DNA from: Candidatus Wolframiiraptor sinensis | GTDB taxonomy: Archaea > Thermoproteota > Nitrososphaeria_A > Caldarchaeales > Wolframiiraptoraceae | Assembly (NCBI GenBank): GCA_023261815.1 | Contig: JALNKA010000010.1 | Location: 1 to 34,152, forward strand | Direction of reading: 5' to 3' | DNA length: 34,152 nt | Shown here: in pieces, positions 1 through 34,152 of the stretch | Numbering within the stretch: the first letter of the stretch is position 1 | Layout: the number at the start of each line of letters is the position of its first letter | Notes under the pieces: generated by a model | Databases searched by the model: none | What the model saw: only the letters and a program-made list of their open reading frames with translations | What the model was told of the DNA's origin: nothing | Program-made: the position numbers and the translations under genes

Positions 1-2
1 CC

Positions 3-623
3 GATTTCGGTGATGCCTATATCTTGTCGAGGATTCGTGATGAGGTGCCGAAGGCCTTCAGAGAAGTCACGCCTTTGGATGCCGTGTTCAAGCCGTTGCT
101 GATAAAGGAGAGGGCGCTGGCCAGGCAGCTGATGAGGCTGCAGCAGATGCTGGAGCTAGGCATAGACTTCGAGGATGAGATCAGGGATTGTGAGGAGAAA
201 TTGATGATTATTCGCGGGGAGATAGTCGAGAATGCTGTGGAGAAGATCCTGAGATTCGCGGATATCGCCAGGGAGCTGGAACTGAACGATAATAATATCA
301 ATGCGCTGTCGGCGCTGGCCGGGCTACTAATTTACTTGAGGTGGCCTTATGAGGTGTCATCATTTCATAGGGCTAAGAGGCTCCTAGGACTGTATAAGCC
401 GACGCGAGAGGAGGTGAGAAGGTTCGAGGAGAGAAGCGGAGAGAAATATAGAAAGCGTTACAGCGGCTATGCTAGGAGATACCTAGTCTTGCTGACGATT
501 GCCATATTGAGCAAAGAGAGGATTTCTAAGCCGAGGGCAAGGAATCAGAAGGAGGTGTTGAGGAAGCTACTGGGAATTTTGAAGACCTATAATGAGGCTA
601 TTGCGGGTGGAGGGGCAGGATAA
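3..623 (+). CDS. IS110/Tas-like RuvC(DEDD)-coiled-coil-Nop/Tnp_20-type protein, 5'-truncated by the window edge
   Basis: The frame is open from position 3 and reads DFGDAYILSRIRDEVPKAFREVTPLD..., i.e. the DxxDA motif of the IS110 RuvC domain. It continues through a helical/coiled-coil stretch to SFHRAKRLLGLYKP...ERSG...RYSGYARRYL, which resembles the IS110 Tnp_20 'F..A..L....GL.P....SG....R..L' region. It is paralogous to the ORF at 33730-34152 and is followed directly by the repeated ncRNA-like module. Confidence 0.72.
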   Translation, partial: DFGDAYILSRIRDEVPKAFREVTPLDAVFKPLLIKERALARQLMRLQQMLELGIDFEDEIRDCEEKLMIIRGEIVENAVEKILRFADIARELELNDNNINALSALAGLLIYLRWPYEVSSFHRAKRLLGLYKPTREEVRRFEERSGEKYRKRYSGYARRYLVLLTIAILSKERISKPRARNQKEVLRKLLGILKTYNEAIAGGGAG

Positions 624-748
624 AAGCCCTGATGAGGCCTGTGGTAAATTATTTGATGCTCCAACAAGGAGTGGTGGCCCGTTTGATGCAGGTGAAAGGG
701 CTGTCCAAATGCCCCCTCCCCCGACACCACCCCTCTTTTCCCTCTCTA
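619..748 (+). ncRNA. Putative guide RNA / element right end, copy 1 (directly downstream of the IS110-like ORF)
   Basis: Outer stem AGCCCT(625-630)/AGGGCT(697-702) with K-turn-like GATGA/GA, inner stem CCTG/CAGG, two 30-nt-spaced units GTGGT-aaattatt-TGATGC (641-659) and GTGGT-ggcccgtt-TGATGC (671-689) separated by the hairpin GCTCC-aacaa-GGAGT, and a pyrimidine-rich tail. Homologous to 3555-3660 and 9109-9240. Confidence 0.65.
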
Positions 749-3506: not shown

Positions 3507-3554
3507 TTTCCACCCCACGCCATCGAGATCCATTAAATGAACTTTTCGACTTAG

Positions 3555-3660
3555 CCCACATTTAATGCTCCAGCAAAAGAGTGATCATCTAATAATGGCG
3601 AGTGAAGGGCTGTCTAGATGCCCCTTCCCTGACACTACCCATCTTTTTCCCTCGAGTTTA
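3555..3660 (+). mobile_element. 5'-truncated solo copy (copy 2) of the guide-RNA/right-end module
   Basis: Aligns to 646-748 (TTTAATGCTCCA..AGAGTGAT..TGAAGGGCTGTCTAGATGCCCCTTCCCTGACACTACCC..TTTTTCCC). Segment CATCTAATA (3586-3594) is the exact reverse complement of the right flank TATTAGATG (3659-3667). It lies between the divergent pheT and trxA genes. Confidence 0.75.
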
Positions 3661-3688
3661 TTAGATGGCTACGATGTTTAAGCTCTCG

Positions 3689-8239: not shown

Positions 8240-8854
8240 TTAATGCCTCTCGAGCTTTCTCTCGATTACCTTACCTCTAGGAGATTCTTCCTCGAACACT
8301 TGCGCGGAGAATCTGTATAGCTTCATCTTTCCGGTGAGCCAGTAGGTGGGCGCGAGACCGGCCTTGAGGCAGAGGTGCATGAGATATTCCTCCGGCGTCC
8401 AGCCATACTCGACGGGAACCTGCGGCAGGAGGAGGCCGCTGTAAACTCCCGCCTCGATTATCAGCCCATCCTCCCCGATCCTTATCGTGCTCGGAAGCTC
8501 CTTTGGATCCGTGAACTTTATCTCCTCGGGAGGGGTCAGCGCGCTGACCTCAACTATTATGCTCGACATCTCATCGAGGGAGACCGGCGGGAACCTTGGA
8601 TCCTCGGTCGCGGACGCTATCGCGGCTCTCATCGCCGCCTCTATCAACGGGTACTCGGGCAGCGGAATCCCTATACAGCCCCTCAACTCCTTCTCGGGAT
8701 GCGTGTAGAGCGTCACGAAGACTCCCTGCCTCCTCCTAAGCCTCTCCGGAGCATCCTCAGGCGGAACGGGCGTCTTCCCGGAAAGATAAACTTCTATGGT
8801 CTTTCTCGCAAGCTTGACGAGATAAGCGCCCTCACTCAAGCTAAGCCTCTCCAT
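8240..8854 (-). CDS. AMMECR1-domain protein (TIGR00296 family)
   Basis: GVFVTL, LRGCIG, EDPRFPPV, SGLLLPQVPVEYGW, LCLKAGL motifs. Confidence 0.93.
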   Translation of the reverse strand: MERLSLSEGAYLVKLARKTIEVYLSGKTPVPPEDAPERLRRRQGVFVTLYTHPEKELRGCIGIPLPEYPLIEAAMRAAIASATEDPRFPPVSLDEMSSIIVEVSALTPPEEIKFTDPKELPSTIRIGEDGLIIEAGVYSGLLLPQVPVEYGWTPEEYLMHLCLKAGLAPTYWLTGKMKLYRFSAQVFEEESPRGKVIERKLERH

Positions 8855-8911
8855 ATTCGCCGAGATAAACCTCCTCCTGCATATTTATGTATAGTCTGAT
8901 CACGAAAAAAG

Positions 8912-9108
8912 ACTATAGCTCCCCCACAGACCGCCAGATCGTTCTCGATCTTCCTTAGAATCTTCAAGCTCATGGAGACCCCCTCCGGCTCCTTGATCAA
9001 GTAATGCATCTTGGCGGCGGCCATTTCCCCCTCCTCAGTCACCTCCACGAGCCTCTTGATGAAGTGATATTCCCTCTGGCGCTTCTTCAATATCCCTTCA
9101 ACCACCCC
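8912..9108 (-). pseudogene. Fragment of an unidentified protein-coding gene carried inside the non-autonomous element
   Basis: The minus-strand frame reads GVVEGILKKRQREYHFIKRLVEVTEEGE...LKILRKIENDLAVCGG with gene-like charged composition. Its 5' end runs into the RNA module with no credible start; no family recognised. Confidence 0.35.
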
Positions 9109-9240
9109 GATAAAAGCCCTGATGGGGGCTGTGGTCACAATTTTAATGCTCCAATATAGGGAGTGGTTGCATATTTAGTGCAGGGCTGGGCTGTCCAAAT
9201 GTTCCCTCCCCTTCTTCACACCCTCTTTTCCCTTTTCTTA
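9109..9240 (+). ncRNA. Putative guide RNA / right end, copy 3
   Basis: GATAAAAGCCCTGATG start identical to 619-634; units GTGGT-cacaattt-TAATGC (9131-9149) and GTGGT-tgcatatt-TAGTGC (9163-9181) around the GCTCC/GGAGT hairpin; GGGCTGTCCAAATG and CCCTCTTTTCCC tail conserved. Confidence 0.7.
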
Positions 9241-9257
9241 AAATTGTGCGAGCGCCG

Positions 9258-9722
9258 CTATCTAGGTGAGCCTGTGAGCTTTCTCCTAGCCTCCTCGAGC
9301 GCCCGGCTAATGTTTCTCCAGTGCGAGCCCCTCCAGTATTTCTTGTCGCATCCCGGGCACATCCACTCCTCCCTACCAGATCTATGCTCAAGTCTGAGCG
9401 GGTGATTGCAAACCGGGCACCTAGTGGATCTCGGGTCGAAGCTCAGGCTTAAGCCGAGCTCGTTAGCCATCCTAGCAAGGATTCCGGGTATATTGTTCTC
9501 GTGGAATAGGAGGACTTTTAGCCCCCTTCTCGCGGCGGCGGCTGCAAGCCCCCTATCCATGGTGAGTATAATTCTATCTTCGGCCTCGGCTATGCCGATG
9601 ACCTCCCTATCGCCGCCGCTCCAGTAGATGGTGTCATATCCGAGAATTCTCAGCCATGAAACGAGATTCTTGAGCATGGCATCCGCGACGAATTTGCGAC
9701 GCCTCGGCTCCTCAGTGCTCAC
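9258..9722 (-). CDS. Mut7-C RNase (PIN-like, DUF82) domain protein with Zn ribbon
   Basis: FVADAML..L..WLRILGYDT, RIILTMDR, RCPVCN, CPGCDKKYWRGSHW. Confidence 0.92.
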   Translation of the reverse strand: MSTEEPRRRKFVADAMLKNLVSWLRILGYDTIYWSGGDREVIGIAEAEDRIILTMDRGLAAAAARRGLKVLLFHENNIPGILARMANELGLSLSFDPRSTRCPVCNHPLRLEHRSGREEWMCPGCDKKYWRGSHWRNISRALEEARRKLTGSPR

Positions 9723-32924: not shown

Positions 32925-33478
32925 CACCTCAGCTGAGCATCTATCAAAGACCTCGCTATAAAAGGGTTACAGCCTCCGAGAAATGCTCACCCCATACCTG
33001 CTTGTAGTAGACTATGTTCCTCGGAGGGAGGATGCATCATCCCCTTTTGTGGCGAATGAAGGCGGGCTCCACGCTTAGGCCGACTAGGCTCAAGCTCTCG
33101 AGGCATCCACGTCCTTTAAGGCTTCCACCTCCGCTCTAATTCTCTCCGGCATTCGGGGGCAATACTTTCAACCATGTTTATACACGTATCTTCTCAGAGT
33201 GCTTAAATATAAACTCAAAACGATCTATTGTAAATGCTCGACGTTTATTCGACCACCACTTCGCCGCCACCAGCTTCTATTAACAAAAATATCAGATCGT
33301 TTAGACTCATCCTCCTCCACTATTCTCTCATCTTTGACGTTACATGGATGCTTTTATCCTAGGCTCCTCCTCAGCTCGATCATTATCCCATGTGAGGCTA
33401 TCCGCGTAAGCCATTCATCTCCAGTCCATGAAACCTTATAATCGCGGTTATGGTTGATGGGTTTTTTAGGGTGGTGTT

Positions 33479-33724
33479 ATGGGCGAGGTCGTGGAGGGCG
33501 TGAGGCTCATAAATCTGACTCCCCACGAGATAACCATTTACATGGATCGAGGCGCGGTATCCATACCCCCCAGCGGCCTGGTCGCCGGGGTCTCGGTTAC
33601 CAGCATTGATATACCCATCAACCCCTCAACCGCGTGGGGTATGGTGGGGTCGAGGAGGAGGGCTTTGAGGATGCTGGCGAGGATGGCCGGCGGGATGGGA
33701 GCCGAGCTTATGAGCGGAAAGTGA
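33479..33724 (+). pseudogene. Truncated virus/plasmid-type hypothetical protein (LINLTPH...IPPSG motif)
   Basis: VRLINLTPHEITIY....VSIPPSGLVA motif, recalled from phage hypothetical proteins; similarity is lost after about 45 aa; immediately upstream of the IS110-like gene. Confidence 0.45.
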
Positions 33725-33729
33725 TCGAT

Positions 33730-34152
33730 ATGGTCAGGAGGGTTTATGTGGATACGGCATGGAAATCGAAGCTCCATACATGCTATGACCCGGCTGAGGA
33801 CGGGTTTTTTGAGGTCGAGGATCTCGCTGAGCTCGCCGGAAGATATGATGAGGTTTACATTGATTGCGCGCTTTTCCCGAATATGTGGCCTCAGCTGAAG
33901 GCGTTGATAAACGATGGCGCGAGGGTCTTCTACTTCGCGTGGCCTTGGAAGTGGAAGAGGCTACGCGAGAGATATGCCGACGATTTGAAGAGGAAGTTTT
34001 GGGAAGTGGAAGACGGATTACGGCGACGCATACGTTTTGTCGAGGATTCATGGTATGCCAAAGGCCTTTGCGGAAGTCACGCCCCTCGACGTGGAGTTCA
34101 AGCCATTGCTGATGAGGGAGAGGAGGGTGGTTAAGATCCTGAACGAGTTATA
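33730..34152 (+). pseudogene. Second IS110/Tas-like RuvC(DEDD) gene, N-terminal part, +1 frameshift near 33997-34000, cut by the window end
   Basis: MVRRVYVDTAWKSKLHTCY...EVYIDCA..., then after the TTTT slip GKWKTDYGDAYVLSRIHGMPKAFAEVTPLDVEFKPLLMRER, which aligns with DFGDAYILSRIRDEVPKAFREVTPLDAVFKPLLIKER at 3-113. Confidence 0.75.

What the first reader, a model, noticed from the sequence alone, without database searches (positions are those of the whole stretch)
8878..9248. Non-autonomous element whose internal RNA-like loop spells out its own insertion site (two 10-nt guide matches around a TA core)
Seen in sequence: inside the repeated module, the variable segment CACAATTT-TA (9136-9145) is the exact reverse complement of the right flank TA-AAATTGTG (9239-9248). 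The second variable segment TGCATATT-TA (9168-9177) is identical to 8878-8887, about 290 bp upstream. Joining the two flanks gives an empty site TGCATATT-TA-AAATTGTG, with one segment able to pair with each DNA strand and TA present at both element ends. Established: IS110/IS1111 bridge and seek RNAs, and TIGR-Tas tigRNAs, use two short segments that pair with opposite target strands, and IS110 recombines at a short core. Inference: this ~355-bp unit is a transposase-less element placed by RNA-guided recombination, using the IS110-like protein in trans.
Basis: partly seen in the sequence, partly recalled or inferred. Interest (0 to 1): 0.95.

Follow-up and report, generated by a model that had tools for sequence, protein, structure and literature searches.

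The report
Guide-only archaeal RNA-guided mobile element
A 353-base insertion in a hot-spring archaeon has no protein gene, but it encodes an RNA whose two nine-letter loops spell out the exact spot where it sits, which points to an undescribed mobile relative of the bridge-RNA (IS110) and TIGR-Tas RNA-guided systems.

Summary
Window 8887-9239 (353 nt) is a true insertion. Four congeners have AMMECR1 and Mut7-C adjacent with the predicted joined site. One DNA run holds both the empty and the occupied allele. The element's ~130-nt RNA module has one internal loop with two 9-nt guides. One guide equals the 9 nt left of the insertion. The other is the reverse complement of the 9 nt to its right.

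The genome holds 19 such modules, most without a gene. A guide matches its own right flank 9/9 in 11 of 19 copies, against 3 of 342 non-self pairings. Both sides were confirmed against empty sites for five copies, including a 1.5-kb autonomous one.

The partner protein (~300 aa, annotated only as "hypothetical", no Pfam hit) belongs to the IS110/TasR superfamily. Its closest solved relative is TasR (profile E 2e-6 to 3e-7), then IS621 (E 0.014). It lacks IS110's catalytic-serine segment. The RNA has one guide loop, not two. Either loop strand can serve as the left guide.

My reading: a new, site-locked, RNA-guided mobile element with guide-only copies served in trans. How the DNA is joined is unresolved.

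The parts
8887..9239 (+). The inserted guide-only element M3, 353 nt. The boundary is ambiguous by 3 nt because TTA occurs at both ends (8885-8887 and 9238-9240).
   Evidence: It is absent from G007, G005, G002 and G009, where the flanking genes abut. One search shows a joint 8884->9238 in a DNA contig of run X3 and in a contig of RNA-library run X20. The occupied allele is present in the same run X3.
8878..8886 (+). Left half-site (9 nt), identical to guide 2
9240..9248 (+). Right half-site (9 nt), reverse complement of guide 1
9105..9237 (+). RNA module of M3: outer stems, internal loop, inner hairpin and pyrimidine-rich tail
   Evidence: Covariance model R1 hit, 101 bits; alignment and fold
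9136..9144 (+). Guide 1, on the 5' strand of the internal loop
9168..9176 (+). Guide 2, on the 3' strand of the internal loop
9148..9164 (+). Inner hairpin between the two guides
   Evidence: helix 4, 95.5% of cells paired
8887..9104 (+). Left part of M3. It is unique sequence, with a short hairpin near the left end. It is not similar to the left parts of other copies.
3..623 (+). 3' part (206 codons) of the TasR/IS110-like gene of autonomous copy M1. The contig begins inside the gene.
   Evidence: The full-length intact version of the same locus is in L117.
615..747 (+). RNA module of M1, with guides at 646-654 and 676-684. The right half-site is at 771-779 (8/9).
   Evidence: The empty site is present in congeners.
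3565..3655 (+). Remnant M2, a 91-nt insert. It keeps the inner hairpin, guide 2 (3586-3594) and the tail. The left flank runs directly into the position of guide 1. The right half-site is at 3659-3667 (9/9).
32980..34152 (+). Left part and 5' part of the gene of another copy, cut off by the contig end. The gene matches in two frames.
8240..8854 (-). AMMECR1 gene (left flank)
9258..9722 (-). Mut7-C RNase-domain gene (right flank)

Best explanation
Window 8887-9239 is a guide-only (non-autonomous) copy of a family of archaeal mobile elements.

The RNA. Each element encodes an RNA of about 130 nt. The RNA has an outer stem, a K-turn-like asymmetric loop, a second stem, one internal loop and an inner hairpin. 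Each strand of the internal loop carries a 9-nt guide. One guide has the sequence of the 9 nt left of the insertion. The other is the reverse complement of the 9 nt to its right. Together they specify an 18-bp site (mostly N7-TT|AA-N7), one guide for each DNA strand.

The protein. The partner is a ~300-aa protein with a RuvC-like (D..D..KxDxxDA) domain, a coiled coil and a Nop-like domain. It belongs to the IS110/TasR superfamily and is encoded only by full-length copies, so it is supplied in trans.

Shown: the insertion, the guide/flank rule, the family, and the protein's superfamily placement.

Inferred: the RNP binds the unoccupied site, by analogy with TasR as a symmetric dimer on one dual-guide RNA. 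The element is installed at the centre of that site. Each lineage is therefore locked to its own site.

My committed mechanism: the RNP breaks the empty allele at its centre. The element is then copied in from an occupied allele, as in homing or retention. New sites would be colonised only rarely, by repair-mediated capture.

I put about 0.85 on the general statement of RNA-guided, site-specific placement in trans. I put about 0.45 on the homing-type step.
For: Insertion and polymorphism. Empty sites were found in 4 of the 5 closest congeners inspected. Empty and occupied alleles occur in the same DNA run.

Guide rule. Self 9/9 in 11 of 19 copies against non-self 3 of 342, with a maximum of 3 in 10,000 shuffled pairings. 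Both flanks were verified against empty sites for M3 (23), C23 (33-36), C33_50434, C32 and autonomous M1 via L117 (110-112). An element of another subfamily in G007 also obeys the rule. Elements of other genera gave single guide/flank matches of 10 nt (91).

Only one guide loop. Of the paired cells 93.3% form standard pairs, against 35-50% when the partners are slid, and 3 pairs show compensatory change.

Protein. Profile hits to TasR 9MTY at E 2.9e-7 and 2e-6, to TasH at 2e-4 and to IS621 at 0.014. The KxDxxD motif aligns, and the serine segment of IS621 falls in a gap. D8, D45 and D99 are invariant and D96 nearly so. An intact gene is present in the genome and in L117.

For a homing-type step. 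The element ends are not conserved, and I found no second guide pair. The left guide is guide 2 in M3, M1, C32 and the G007 element, but guide 1 in C23 and C33_50434. This fits a symmetric nuclease dimer. Junction overlaps vary in length and register: TTA, AA, TTT and 8 nt. Copies within the genome differ by about 20-30%, so there was no recent burst. M3 carries a unique left part.
Against: No biochemistry is available, and no RNA expression was shown. The only RNA-library run laid holds the empty allele only.

The RuvC and Nop folds therefore rest on profile hits and motifs. Residues 1-83 have no database match.

Four of 19 copies match their right flank at only 6-7 of 9, including the intact C12 copy. 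In M3 itself the K-turn-like motif is degenerate. A strain variant in run X3 has an extra base inside guide 1.

The junction lies at the centre of the site with 0-3 nt of overlap. This resembles the IS110 core more than the 8-nt staggered cut reported for TasR.

Two unrelated subfamilies occupy the same site in G000 and G007, with the guide order swapped. Simple site-locked descent does not explain this.

Homing cannot explain how new sites are first colonised.
Confidence: 0.5

Rival explanations
1. Direct RNA-guided recombination or transposition. The RNP itself joins element DNA (for example an excised circle) to the target at a short core in the centre of the site, as IS110 bridge recombinases do. 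It would use the RuvC-type active site alone, because the serine is missing.
For: The insertion lies exactly at the boundary of the two half-sites with 2-3 nt shared at both ends. In 10 of 16 copies the right end finishes in TT directly before the right half-site, and the left half-site also mostly ends in TT. There are 19 RNA modules but few intact genes, as with MITEs. There is profile similarity to IS621.
Against: There is no conserved serine or other obvious nucleophile. I found no donor-binding loop and no conserved element ends. The overlap at the junctions differs in length and register between copies. Guide roles are interchangeable. There are no near-identical copies within the genome.
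Confidence: 0.3
2. A canonical IS110/IS1111 element with a bridge or seek RNA whose donor loop and catalytic residue I failed to recognise.
For: The RNA lies 3' of the gene, as in the IS1111 group (paper passages). Guides pair with opposite strands. NCBIfam IS110 gives a weak hit (E 0.27). Pfam DEDD_Tnp_IS110 gives E 0.043 for 1 of 11 members.
Against: No family member reaches any Pfam threshold. TasR scores far better than IS621. The RNA has a single loop. The guide order is not fixed.
Confidence: 0.1
3. Dispersed TIGR-like or C/D-sRNA-like guide genes whose main role is regulation, defence or RNA modification. The flank match would be a by-product of how such genes spread.
For: There is a box C-like GAUGA / GA motif and a weak Rfam C/D sRNA hit (E 0.41). 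MITE-like C/D sRNA elements are known in Pyrobaculum. Catalytically dead TasR proteins act as repressors.
Against: The insertion splits the guides' only known match, so the RNA has no intact target in its own genome. The acidic residues of the protein are conserved. I did not test the guides against rRNA or tRNA.
Confidence: 0.07
4. Chance similarity, or an assembly artefact.
For: Short AT-rich 9-10-mers recur in intergenic DNA. The contigs break at these elements.
Against: shuffled pairings; empty sites; independent runs.
Confidence: 0.01

Closest known systems
TIGR-Tas, specifically TasR (PDB 9MTY; Faure et al. 2025, PMC12045711, passages read)
   Same: A ~300-aa protein with a RuvC-type N-terminal part, a coiled coil and a Nop domain. 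This is the best profile hit. The guide RNA has two ~9-nt spacers that pair with opposite DNA strands of an 18-bp site. No flanking motif outside the site is evident. Stem-loop guide units flanked by short conserved motifs are known.
   Different: Here there is a single guide unit directly 3' of the gene, plus solo units scattered in the genome, and no array. The guides match the element's own insertion site. The unit is itself an insertion that is polymorphic in nature. The junction lies at the site centre and does not show the reported 8-nt stagger. Sequence similarity is remote.
IS110/IS1111 bridge (seek) RNA recombinases such as IS621 (PDB 8WT6)
   Same: A mobile element whose own non-coding RNA carries guides for the left and right target halves on opposite strands. 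The insertion sits at the boundary of the halves with a few shared bases. The protein belongs to the same superfamily.
   Different: No catalytic-serine segment. No Pfam PF01548/PF02371 match. One loop instead of target and donor loops. Guide roles are interchangeable. Element ends are not conserved. Every copy has its own target, rather than all copies of one IS sharing a target.
MITEPpu9 of ISPpu9 (PMC12288879, passages read)
   Same: A small protein-less derivative of an IS110-family element that carries an sRNA gene and is thought to move with the transposase supplied in trans.
   Different: Its sRNA (Ssr9) is not the guide RNA. It keeps the conserved IS ends and the REP target shared by all copies.
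OMEGA systems (TnpB/IscB with omega RNA) and homing endonuclease genes
   Same: They work alike if my committed mechanism is right: an element-encoded nuclease targets the allele that lacks the element, so that the element is kept or copied in. This comparison is recalled knowledge plus the title and abstract listing.
   Different: The protein fold is unrelated. The omega RNA guide is read out of the flank, whereas here both guides are internal and must match before insertion.
Archaeal box C/D sRNPs and MITE-like C/D sRNA elements of Pyrobaculum (PMC6009581; Vaysset et al., PMC11213020)
   Same: A Nop-domain partner, two short guides in one RNA, a K-turn-like motif, and dispersed small RNA genes that behave as mobile units.
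   Different: The guides match DNA flanks. The protein keeps its acidic RuvC residues. The genome has a separate canonical Nop5. No methylation target is known.

Membership tests
IS110/IS1111 bridge recombinase elements | N-terminal DEDD RuvC-like domain (Pfam PF01548) | tested here: inconclusive
   No hit at threshold. The best is E 0.043 for 1 of 11 members. NCBIfam IS110 gives E 0.27. One G007 member gives 20 bits, below the cut-off. However, D8, D45 and D99 are invariant, D96 is nearly so, and the KxDxxDA motif aligns to IS621 and TasR.
IS110/IS1111 bridge recombinase elements | C-terminal Tnp domain with catalytic serine (PF02371) | tested here: not met
   No conserved Ser in alignments of 11, 20 and 51 members. 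The IS621 segment bearing the serine is an insertion relative to the family profile.
IS110/IS1111 bridge recombinase elements | Bridge RNA with two guide loops (target-binding and donor-binding) | tested here: not met
   The consensus fold of 15 copies has one internal loop. I noticed no segment matching the element ends, but I ran no formal search for one.
IS110/IS1111 bridge recombinase elements | Guides match the left and right target flanks on opposite strands | tested here: met
IS110/IS1111 bridge recombinase elements | Fixed core dinucleotide shared by donor and target; circular intermediate | tested here: inconclusive
   The shared bases at the junctions are TTA, AA, TTT and 8 nt, in different registers.
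TIGR-Tas (TasR type) | Nop-domain protein with an N-terminal RuvC nuclease, about 300 aa | tested here: met
   Met at profile level only: 9MTY at E 2.9e-7 and 2e-6 over residues 84-251, and TasH at E 2e-4. The identity of 9MTY as TasR was confirmed in the paper. No structure model was made.
TIGR-Tas (TasR type) | Dual-spacer guide, each spacer pairing with a different DNA strand | tested here: met
   Inferred from the flank matches: 9 + 9 nt, contiguous 18-bp site.
TIGR-Tas (TasR type) | Tandem array of guide units beside the tas gene | tested here: not met
   One module per locus in all 19 model hits. No array appears among the repeats of the window.
Box C/D sRNP | K-turn formed by box C/D motifs; Nop5 (PF01798) partner; guides to rRNA or tRNA | tested here: inconclusive
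   The asymmetric loop GAUGA opposite GA, next to a 6-bp stem, fits a K-turn by sequence in 12 of the 15 aligned copies. It is absent in M3 and in other subfamilies. The protein has no PF01798 hit. hhalign against the genome's own Nop5 gave nothing. rRNA and tRNA targets were not tested.
MITE (non-autonomous transposon) | Short, protein-less, multicopy, terminal inverted repeats, target-site duplication | tested here: inconclusive
   It is protein-less and multicopy. No inverted repeat joining the two ends appears among the 25 longest of 65 listed. The ends are not conserved between copies. The direct repeat at the ends is only 2-3 nt.

The most novel reading that the evidence does not exclude
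This is a living intermediate between IS110 bridge recombinases, TIGR-Tas nucleases and box C/D snoRNPs. It is an archaeal selfish element built from a serine-less RuvC-Nop protein and a single K-turn-bearing dual-guide RNA. Its guide-only copies behave as RNA-programmed gene drives, each locked to one 18-bp site. It could be re-aimed simply by rewriting 2 x 9 nt. It would be the first natural case of a Tas-type RNP used for DNA insertion. It would also be an extant archaeal lineage of the kind Vaysset et al. considered possibly extinct as the source of Nop5.
Probability: 0.35. Interest if true: 0.95.

Novelty: new variant of a known kind. Interest (0 to 1): 0.86.

Why it matters
It would add a third way of life to the Nop-domain dual-guide RNPs. 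Alongside recombination (IS110) and cleavage or repression (TIGR-Tas), there would be a mobile, site-locked form with guide-only parasites.

The protein family is invisible to Pfam-based mining. Every member I saw is named "hypothetical protein" and carries no Pfam domain. It is nevertheless present in 32 of 76 genomes of its archaeal order, often in many copies.

It offers a compact candidate for programmable DNA insertion: ~300 aa plus an RNA of ~130 nt, from thermophiles. It also gives a concrete system for testing how dual-guide RNAs acquire new targets, which the TIGR literature calls unknown. Finally, it bears on the proposed descent of box C/D snoRNPs from transposon RNPs.

Tried and rejected
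Rfam gave no family at gathering score for the window or for L013. At E<=10 there were only two miRNA models and a C/D sRNA model at E 0.41. I treat these as no identification.

Hammerhead reading of the CUGAUGA...GAA motif: rejected, because the strands before and after it pair with each other and Rfam gave no hit.

Pfam and NCBIfam on the protein gave nothing usable. A single-sequence PDB search gave nothing. hhalign of profile A2 against the genome's own Nop5 gave probability 0.2.

The single-protein query found 48 pattern matches, but none encoded a relative.

Similarity of M3's left 220 nt to other copies or to anything else in the genome: none above shuffled scores. Its minus-strand ORF and the 81-aa upstream ORF of the window-end copy have no Pfam hit.

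Model R1 in 13 congeners gave 0 hits in 12 and one weak hit. Only 150 of 178-384 candidates per genome were scored, and G007 does hold a diverged element. This is therefore not evidence of absence.

Metagenome scan with a 17-nt motif: only 5 of the 80 loci returned are true modules. Four of these are strain variants of loci already known in G000.

RNA-library run X20 shows only the empty allele, so it says nothing about expression of the module. The depth differences in run X2 (flank contigs 203-229, element contig 118) are per-contig figures and I do not use them.

The left half-site of the C4_36642 copy could not be found in G005.

I saw no second (donor) guide pair, but I made no formal covariation test of element ends against the RNA.

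Supplementary tables of the TIGR-Tas papers were not seen. They may list this protein family among the 'Tas' clades.

My literature statement 'not described' rests on searches, and on passages of seven papers. PMC11213020 was read in parts 1-2 of 5. For PMC12045711, PMC12288879, PMC6009581 and three bioRxiv preprints I read only the passages found by 'find'.

Full report
Observation. Window 9136-9145 is the reverse complement of 9239-9248. Window 9168-9177 is identical to 8878-8887. The surrounding ~130-nt module recurs at 615-747, and in truncated form near 3540-3655.

The unit is a real insertion and is polymorphic. A search of 40 related genomes found AMMECR1 and Mut7-C adjacent in several congeners. 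In G007, G005, G002 and G009 the short spacer contains the predicted joined site with one to four substitutions. Public hot-spring runs hold the locus. Contigs of four runs were laid on it. A 92-nt DNA contig of run X3 joins 8884 to 9238, skipping 353 nt with 3 ambiguous letters. A 447-nt contig of the same run carries the element. A 162-nt contig of an RNA-library run (X20) shows the same joint. The element is therefore 353 nt with TTA at both ends, and both alleles coexist in nature.

Family. The window is the whole of contig C14 of a 1.18-Mb, 33-contig genome. BLAST and a covariance model built from 15 copies find 19 modules in it. Only a few follow a long ORF. There is one intact 303-codon gene on C12, and there are partial genes at contig ends. 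Most of the remaining copies keep only the last codons of the gene. Copies differ from each other by roughly 20-30%. M3's left 220 nt resemble no other copy and nothing else in the genome.

Guide rule. I took the guide as the 9 nt before the conserved 3' GAU of each loop strand. The reverse complement of one guide then occurs in the copy's own right flank at 9/9 in 11 of 19 copies, at 8/9 in 4, at 7/9 in 3 and at 6/9 in 1. Non-self pairings give 9/9 in 3 of 342. In 10,000 shuffled pairings no shuffle had more than 3 copies at 9/9 or more than 7 at >=8/9 (longest-match version).

- Empty sites in congeners confirm both boundaries and both guides for five copies: M3, C23, C33_50434, C32 and the autonomous copy M1.
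- M1's full 1,525-nt form was recovered as locus L117 from a metagenome scan. It carries an intact gene.
- Empty sites also fit, on one side or in rearranged form, for C5_34168 and C4_24650, for M2 and for C9_60495.
- The target is thus 18 bp: guide X in sense, followed by the reverse complement of guide Y. Guide position 8 is T in 34 of 38 guides. Position 9 is T in 27 and A in 10. The centre is therefore mostly TT|AA.
- The left guide is guide 2 in M3, M1, C32 and an element in G007. It is guide 1 in C23 and C33_50434. The two loop strands are interchangeable.
- The bases shared at the two junctions vary: TTA in M3, AA in C23, TTT in C33_50434 and 8 nt in the G007 element. The element ends are not conserved. 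In 10 of 16 copies the right end finishes in TT.
- In M2 and C4_24650 the left flank runs straight into the position of guide 1. This is what a deletion between the flank and the identical guide would leave.
- Elements of other subfamilies and genera show related matches: G007 on both sides, and G025 and G071 with one 10-nt match each.

RNA. The consensus fold has a 4-bp and a 6-bp outer stem. Next comes an asymmetric loop (GAUGA opposite GA) that fits a K-turn by sequence. Then follow a 6-7-bp stem, the internal loop with the two guides, and a 6-bp inner hairpin. A pyrimidine-rich tail follows. On the 15-copy alignment 93.3% of cells pair, against 35-50% when the partners are slid. Three pairs show compensatory change, and no shuffle of 500 reaches the covariation score. 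The K-turn-like motif is degenerate in M3 and absent in the related modules of another genus. I therefore treat it as a lead. Rfam has no matching family.

Protein. Pfam, NCBIfam and single-sequence PDB searches give nothing significant.

- A scan of 1.84 billion representative proteins finds only 63 relatives at E<=1e-3.
- A word-indexed search finds 114, all without a Pfam domain. Those that carry a name are 'hypothetical protein' from Nitrososphaerota, Thaumarchaeota, Bathyarchaeia or Candidatus Wolframiiraptor MAGs.
- Alignments of 11, 20 and 51 members keep H16, D20, D45, K94 and D99 invariant, with D8 and D96 nearly so. There is no conserved serine.
- Profiles hit solved structures as follows: TasH at E 2e-4; chain 9mty_A at E 2.9e-7 and 2e-6 over residues 84-251; and IS621 at E 0.014, where the serine-bearing segment of IS621 falls in a gap. 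The TIGR-Tas paper states that 9MTY is the TasR complex.
- The ESM Atlas places the protein next to unnamed archaeal clusters. After those come viral clusters in which 19-44% of members carry the IS110 Pfam domains.
- The family occurs in 32 of 76 genomes of the order, often in many copies. Canonical IS110 passes its Pfam cut-off in only 4 of 76, and not in this genome.
- The genome has a separate canonical Nop5.

Literature. IS110 recombinases, Nop5 and TasR are known to share the RuvC, coiled-coil and Nop architecture and dual-guide RNAs (PMC11213020 parts 1-2; PMC12045711 passages). TasR is a symmetric dimer on one RNA with two 9-nt spacers, and it cuts to leave 8-nt 3' overhangs. Stem-loop guide units and dead-RuvC repressors are described, and spacer acquisition is called unknown. 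An IS110-linked MITE with an unrelated sRNA is known, as are MITE-like C/D sRNA elements. Bridge-RNA mining pipelines select on the IS110 Pfam architecture, and this family lacks that architecture. In searches I found no description of a Tas-like or serine-less IS110-like mobile element whose guides match its own insertion site. I could not see the supplementary tables.

Interpretation. Four things are shown: a guide-only insertion, a genome-wide guide/flank rule, an 18-bp bipartite site, and a partner protein of the IS110/TasR superfamily supplied by other copies. The rest is inferred: the RNP reads the unoccupied site with one guide per strand and causes the element to be placed at its centre.

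- Against a canonical bridge mechanism stand the missing serine, the single loop, the interchangeable guides and the unconserved ends.
- For a nuclease-plus-copying (homing or retention) mechanism stand the same points, together with the variable junction overlaps, the divergence of the copies and the unique cargo of M3.
- Against homing stand the central junction, which is unlike TasR's stagger, the need for some other way to reach new sites, and two unrelated subfamilies at one site in G000 and G007 with swapped guide order.

I commit to the homing-type reading at about 0.45 and to direct recombination at about 0.3.

Limits. No expression data were obtained. No search for circle junctions was made. 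The negative model search in congeners is weak.

Noticed in passing
window 1-747 and 32980-34152: The contig starts inside one copy of the element and ends inside another, both on the + strand, so the assembly broke at these repeats. The gene of the end copy matches the intact protein in two different frames around 33990-34000, which suggests a frameshift or an assembly error.
   Followed up: partly
window 8836-9138 (- strand): A 100-codon frame stays open through the whole left part of M3. It crosses the element's left boundary and ends overlapping the AMMECR1 start codon. It has no Pfam hit and no relative in the genome. It may be chance, or it may preserve translation through the Mut7-C/AMMECR1 operon into which the element inserted.
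   Followed up: partly
L117:373-891 (-); also the left parts of copies C23, C33_50434 and C9_60495: An antisense ORF lies upstream of the protein gene. The ~25-residue C-terminal peptide of this ORF is conserved in the left parts of several copies, including gene-less ones. Its function is unknown.
   Followed up: no
G000 C9:60300-61130 (L027 1023-1825): At this site the insert is about 803 nt. The left target half and its neighbouring intergenic DNA lie inverted downstream of the module. This suggests an inversion involving the element.
   Followed up: partly
G000 C4:35500-38000 (L019) and window 32980-34152: The two flanks of the C4_36642 copy map to different contigs in all four close congeners. 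In G005 the flank of the window-end copy lies 93 nt from the right flank of the C4 copy. This indicates either an element-mediated rearrangement or a chimeric assembly.
   Followed up: partly
G007:C4:7260-8488 (L088): A full-length element of a different subfamily sits at the same intergenic site and in the same orientation as G000's gene-less C33_50434 copy. Here guide 2, rather than guide 1, matches the left flank over 12 nt. An 8-nt copy of the left half-site lies at the element's right end.
   Followed up: partly
G000 C17:28720-29556 and C15:2163-2993: Two further intact paralogues of the protein, about 30% identical to the C12 copy, are followed by different structured 3' regions and lie next to tRNA-like sequences.
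   Followed up: no
L013:1-670 (G000 C12): A very G+C-rich 670-nt stretch lies upstream of the only intact gene of this subfamily. It has no Rfam match.
   Followed up: no
G000 C9:58521-59195: The genome's canonical Nop5 gene lies about 1.3 kb from the C9_60495 element copy. This is probably coincidence.
   Followed up: no
window 9140 (run X3 variant): The occupied allele in run X3 differs from the window by 10 substitutions and 2 single-base insertions over 447 nt. One of the insertions lies inside guide 1. This hints that the copy is decaying in that strain.
   Followed up: no
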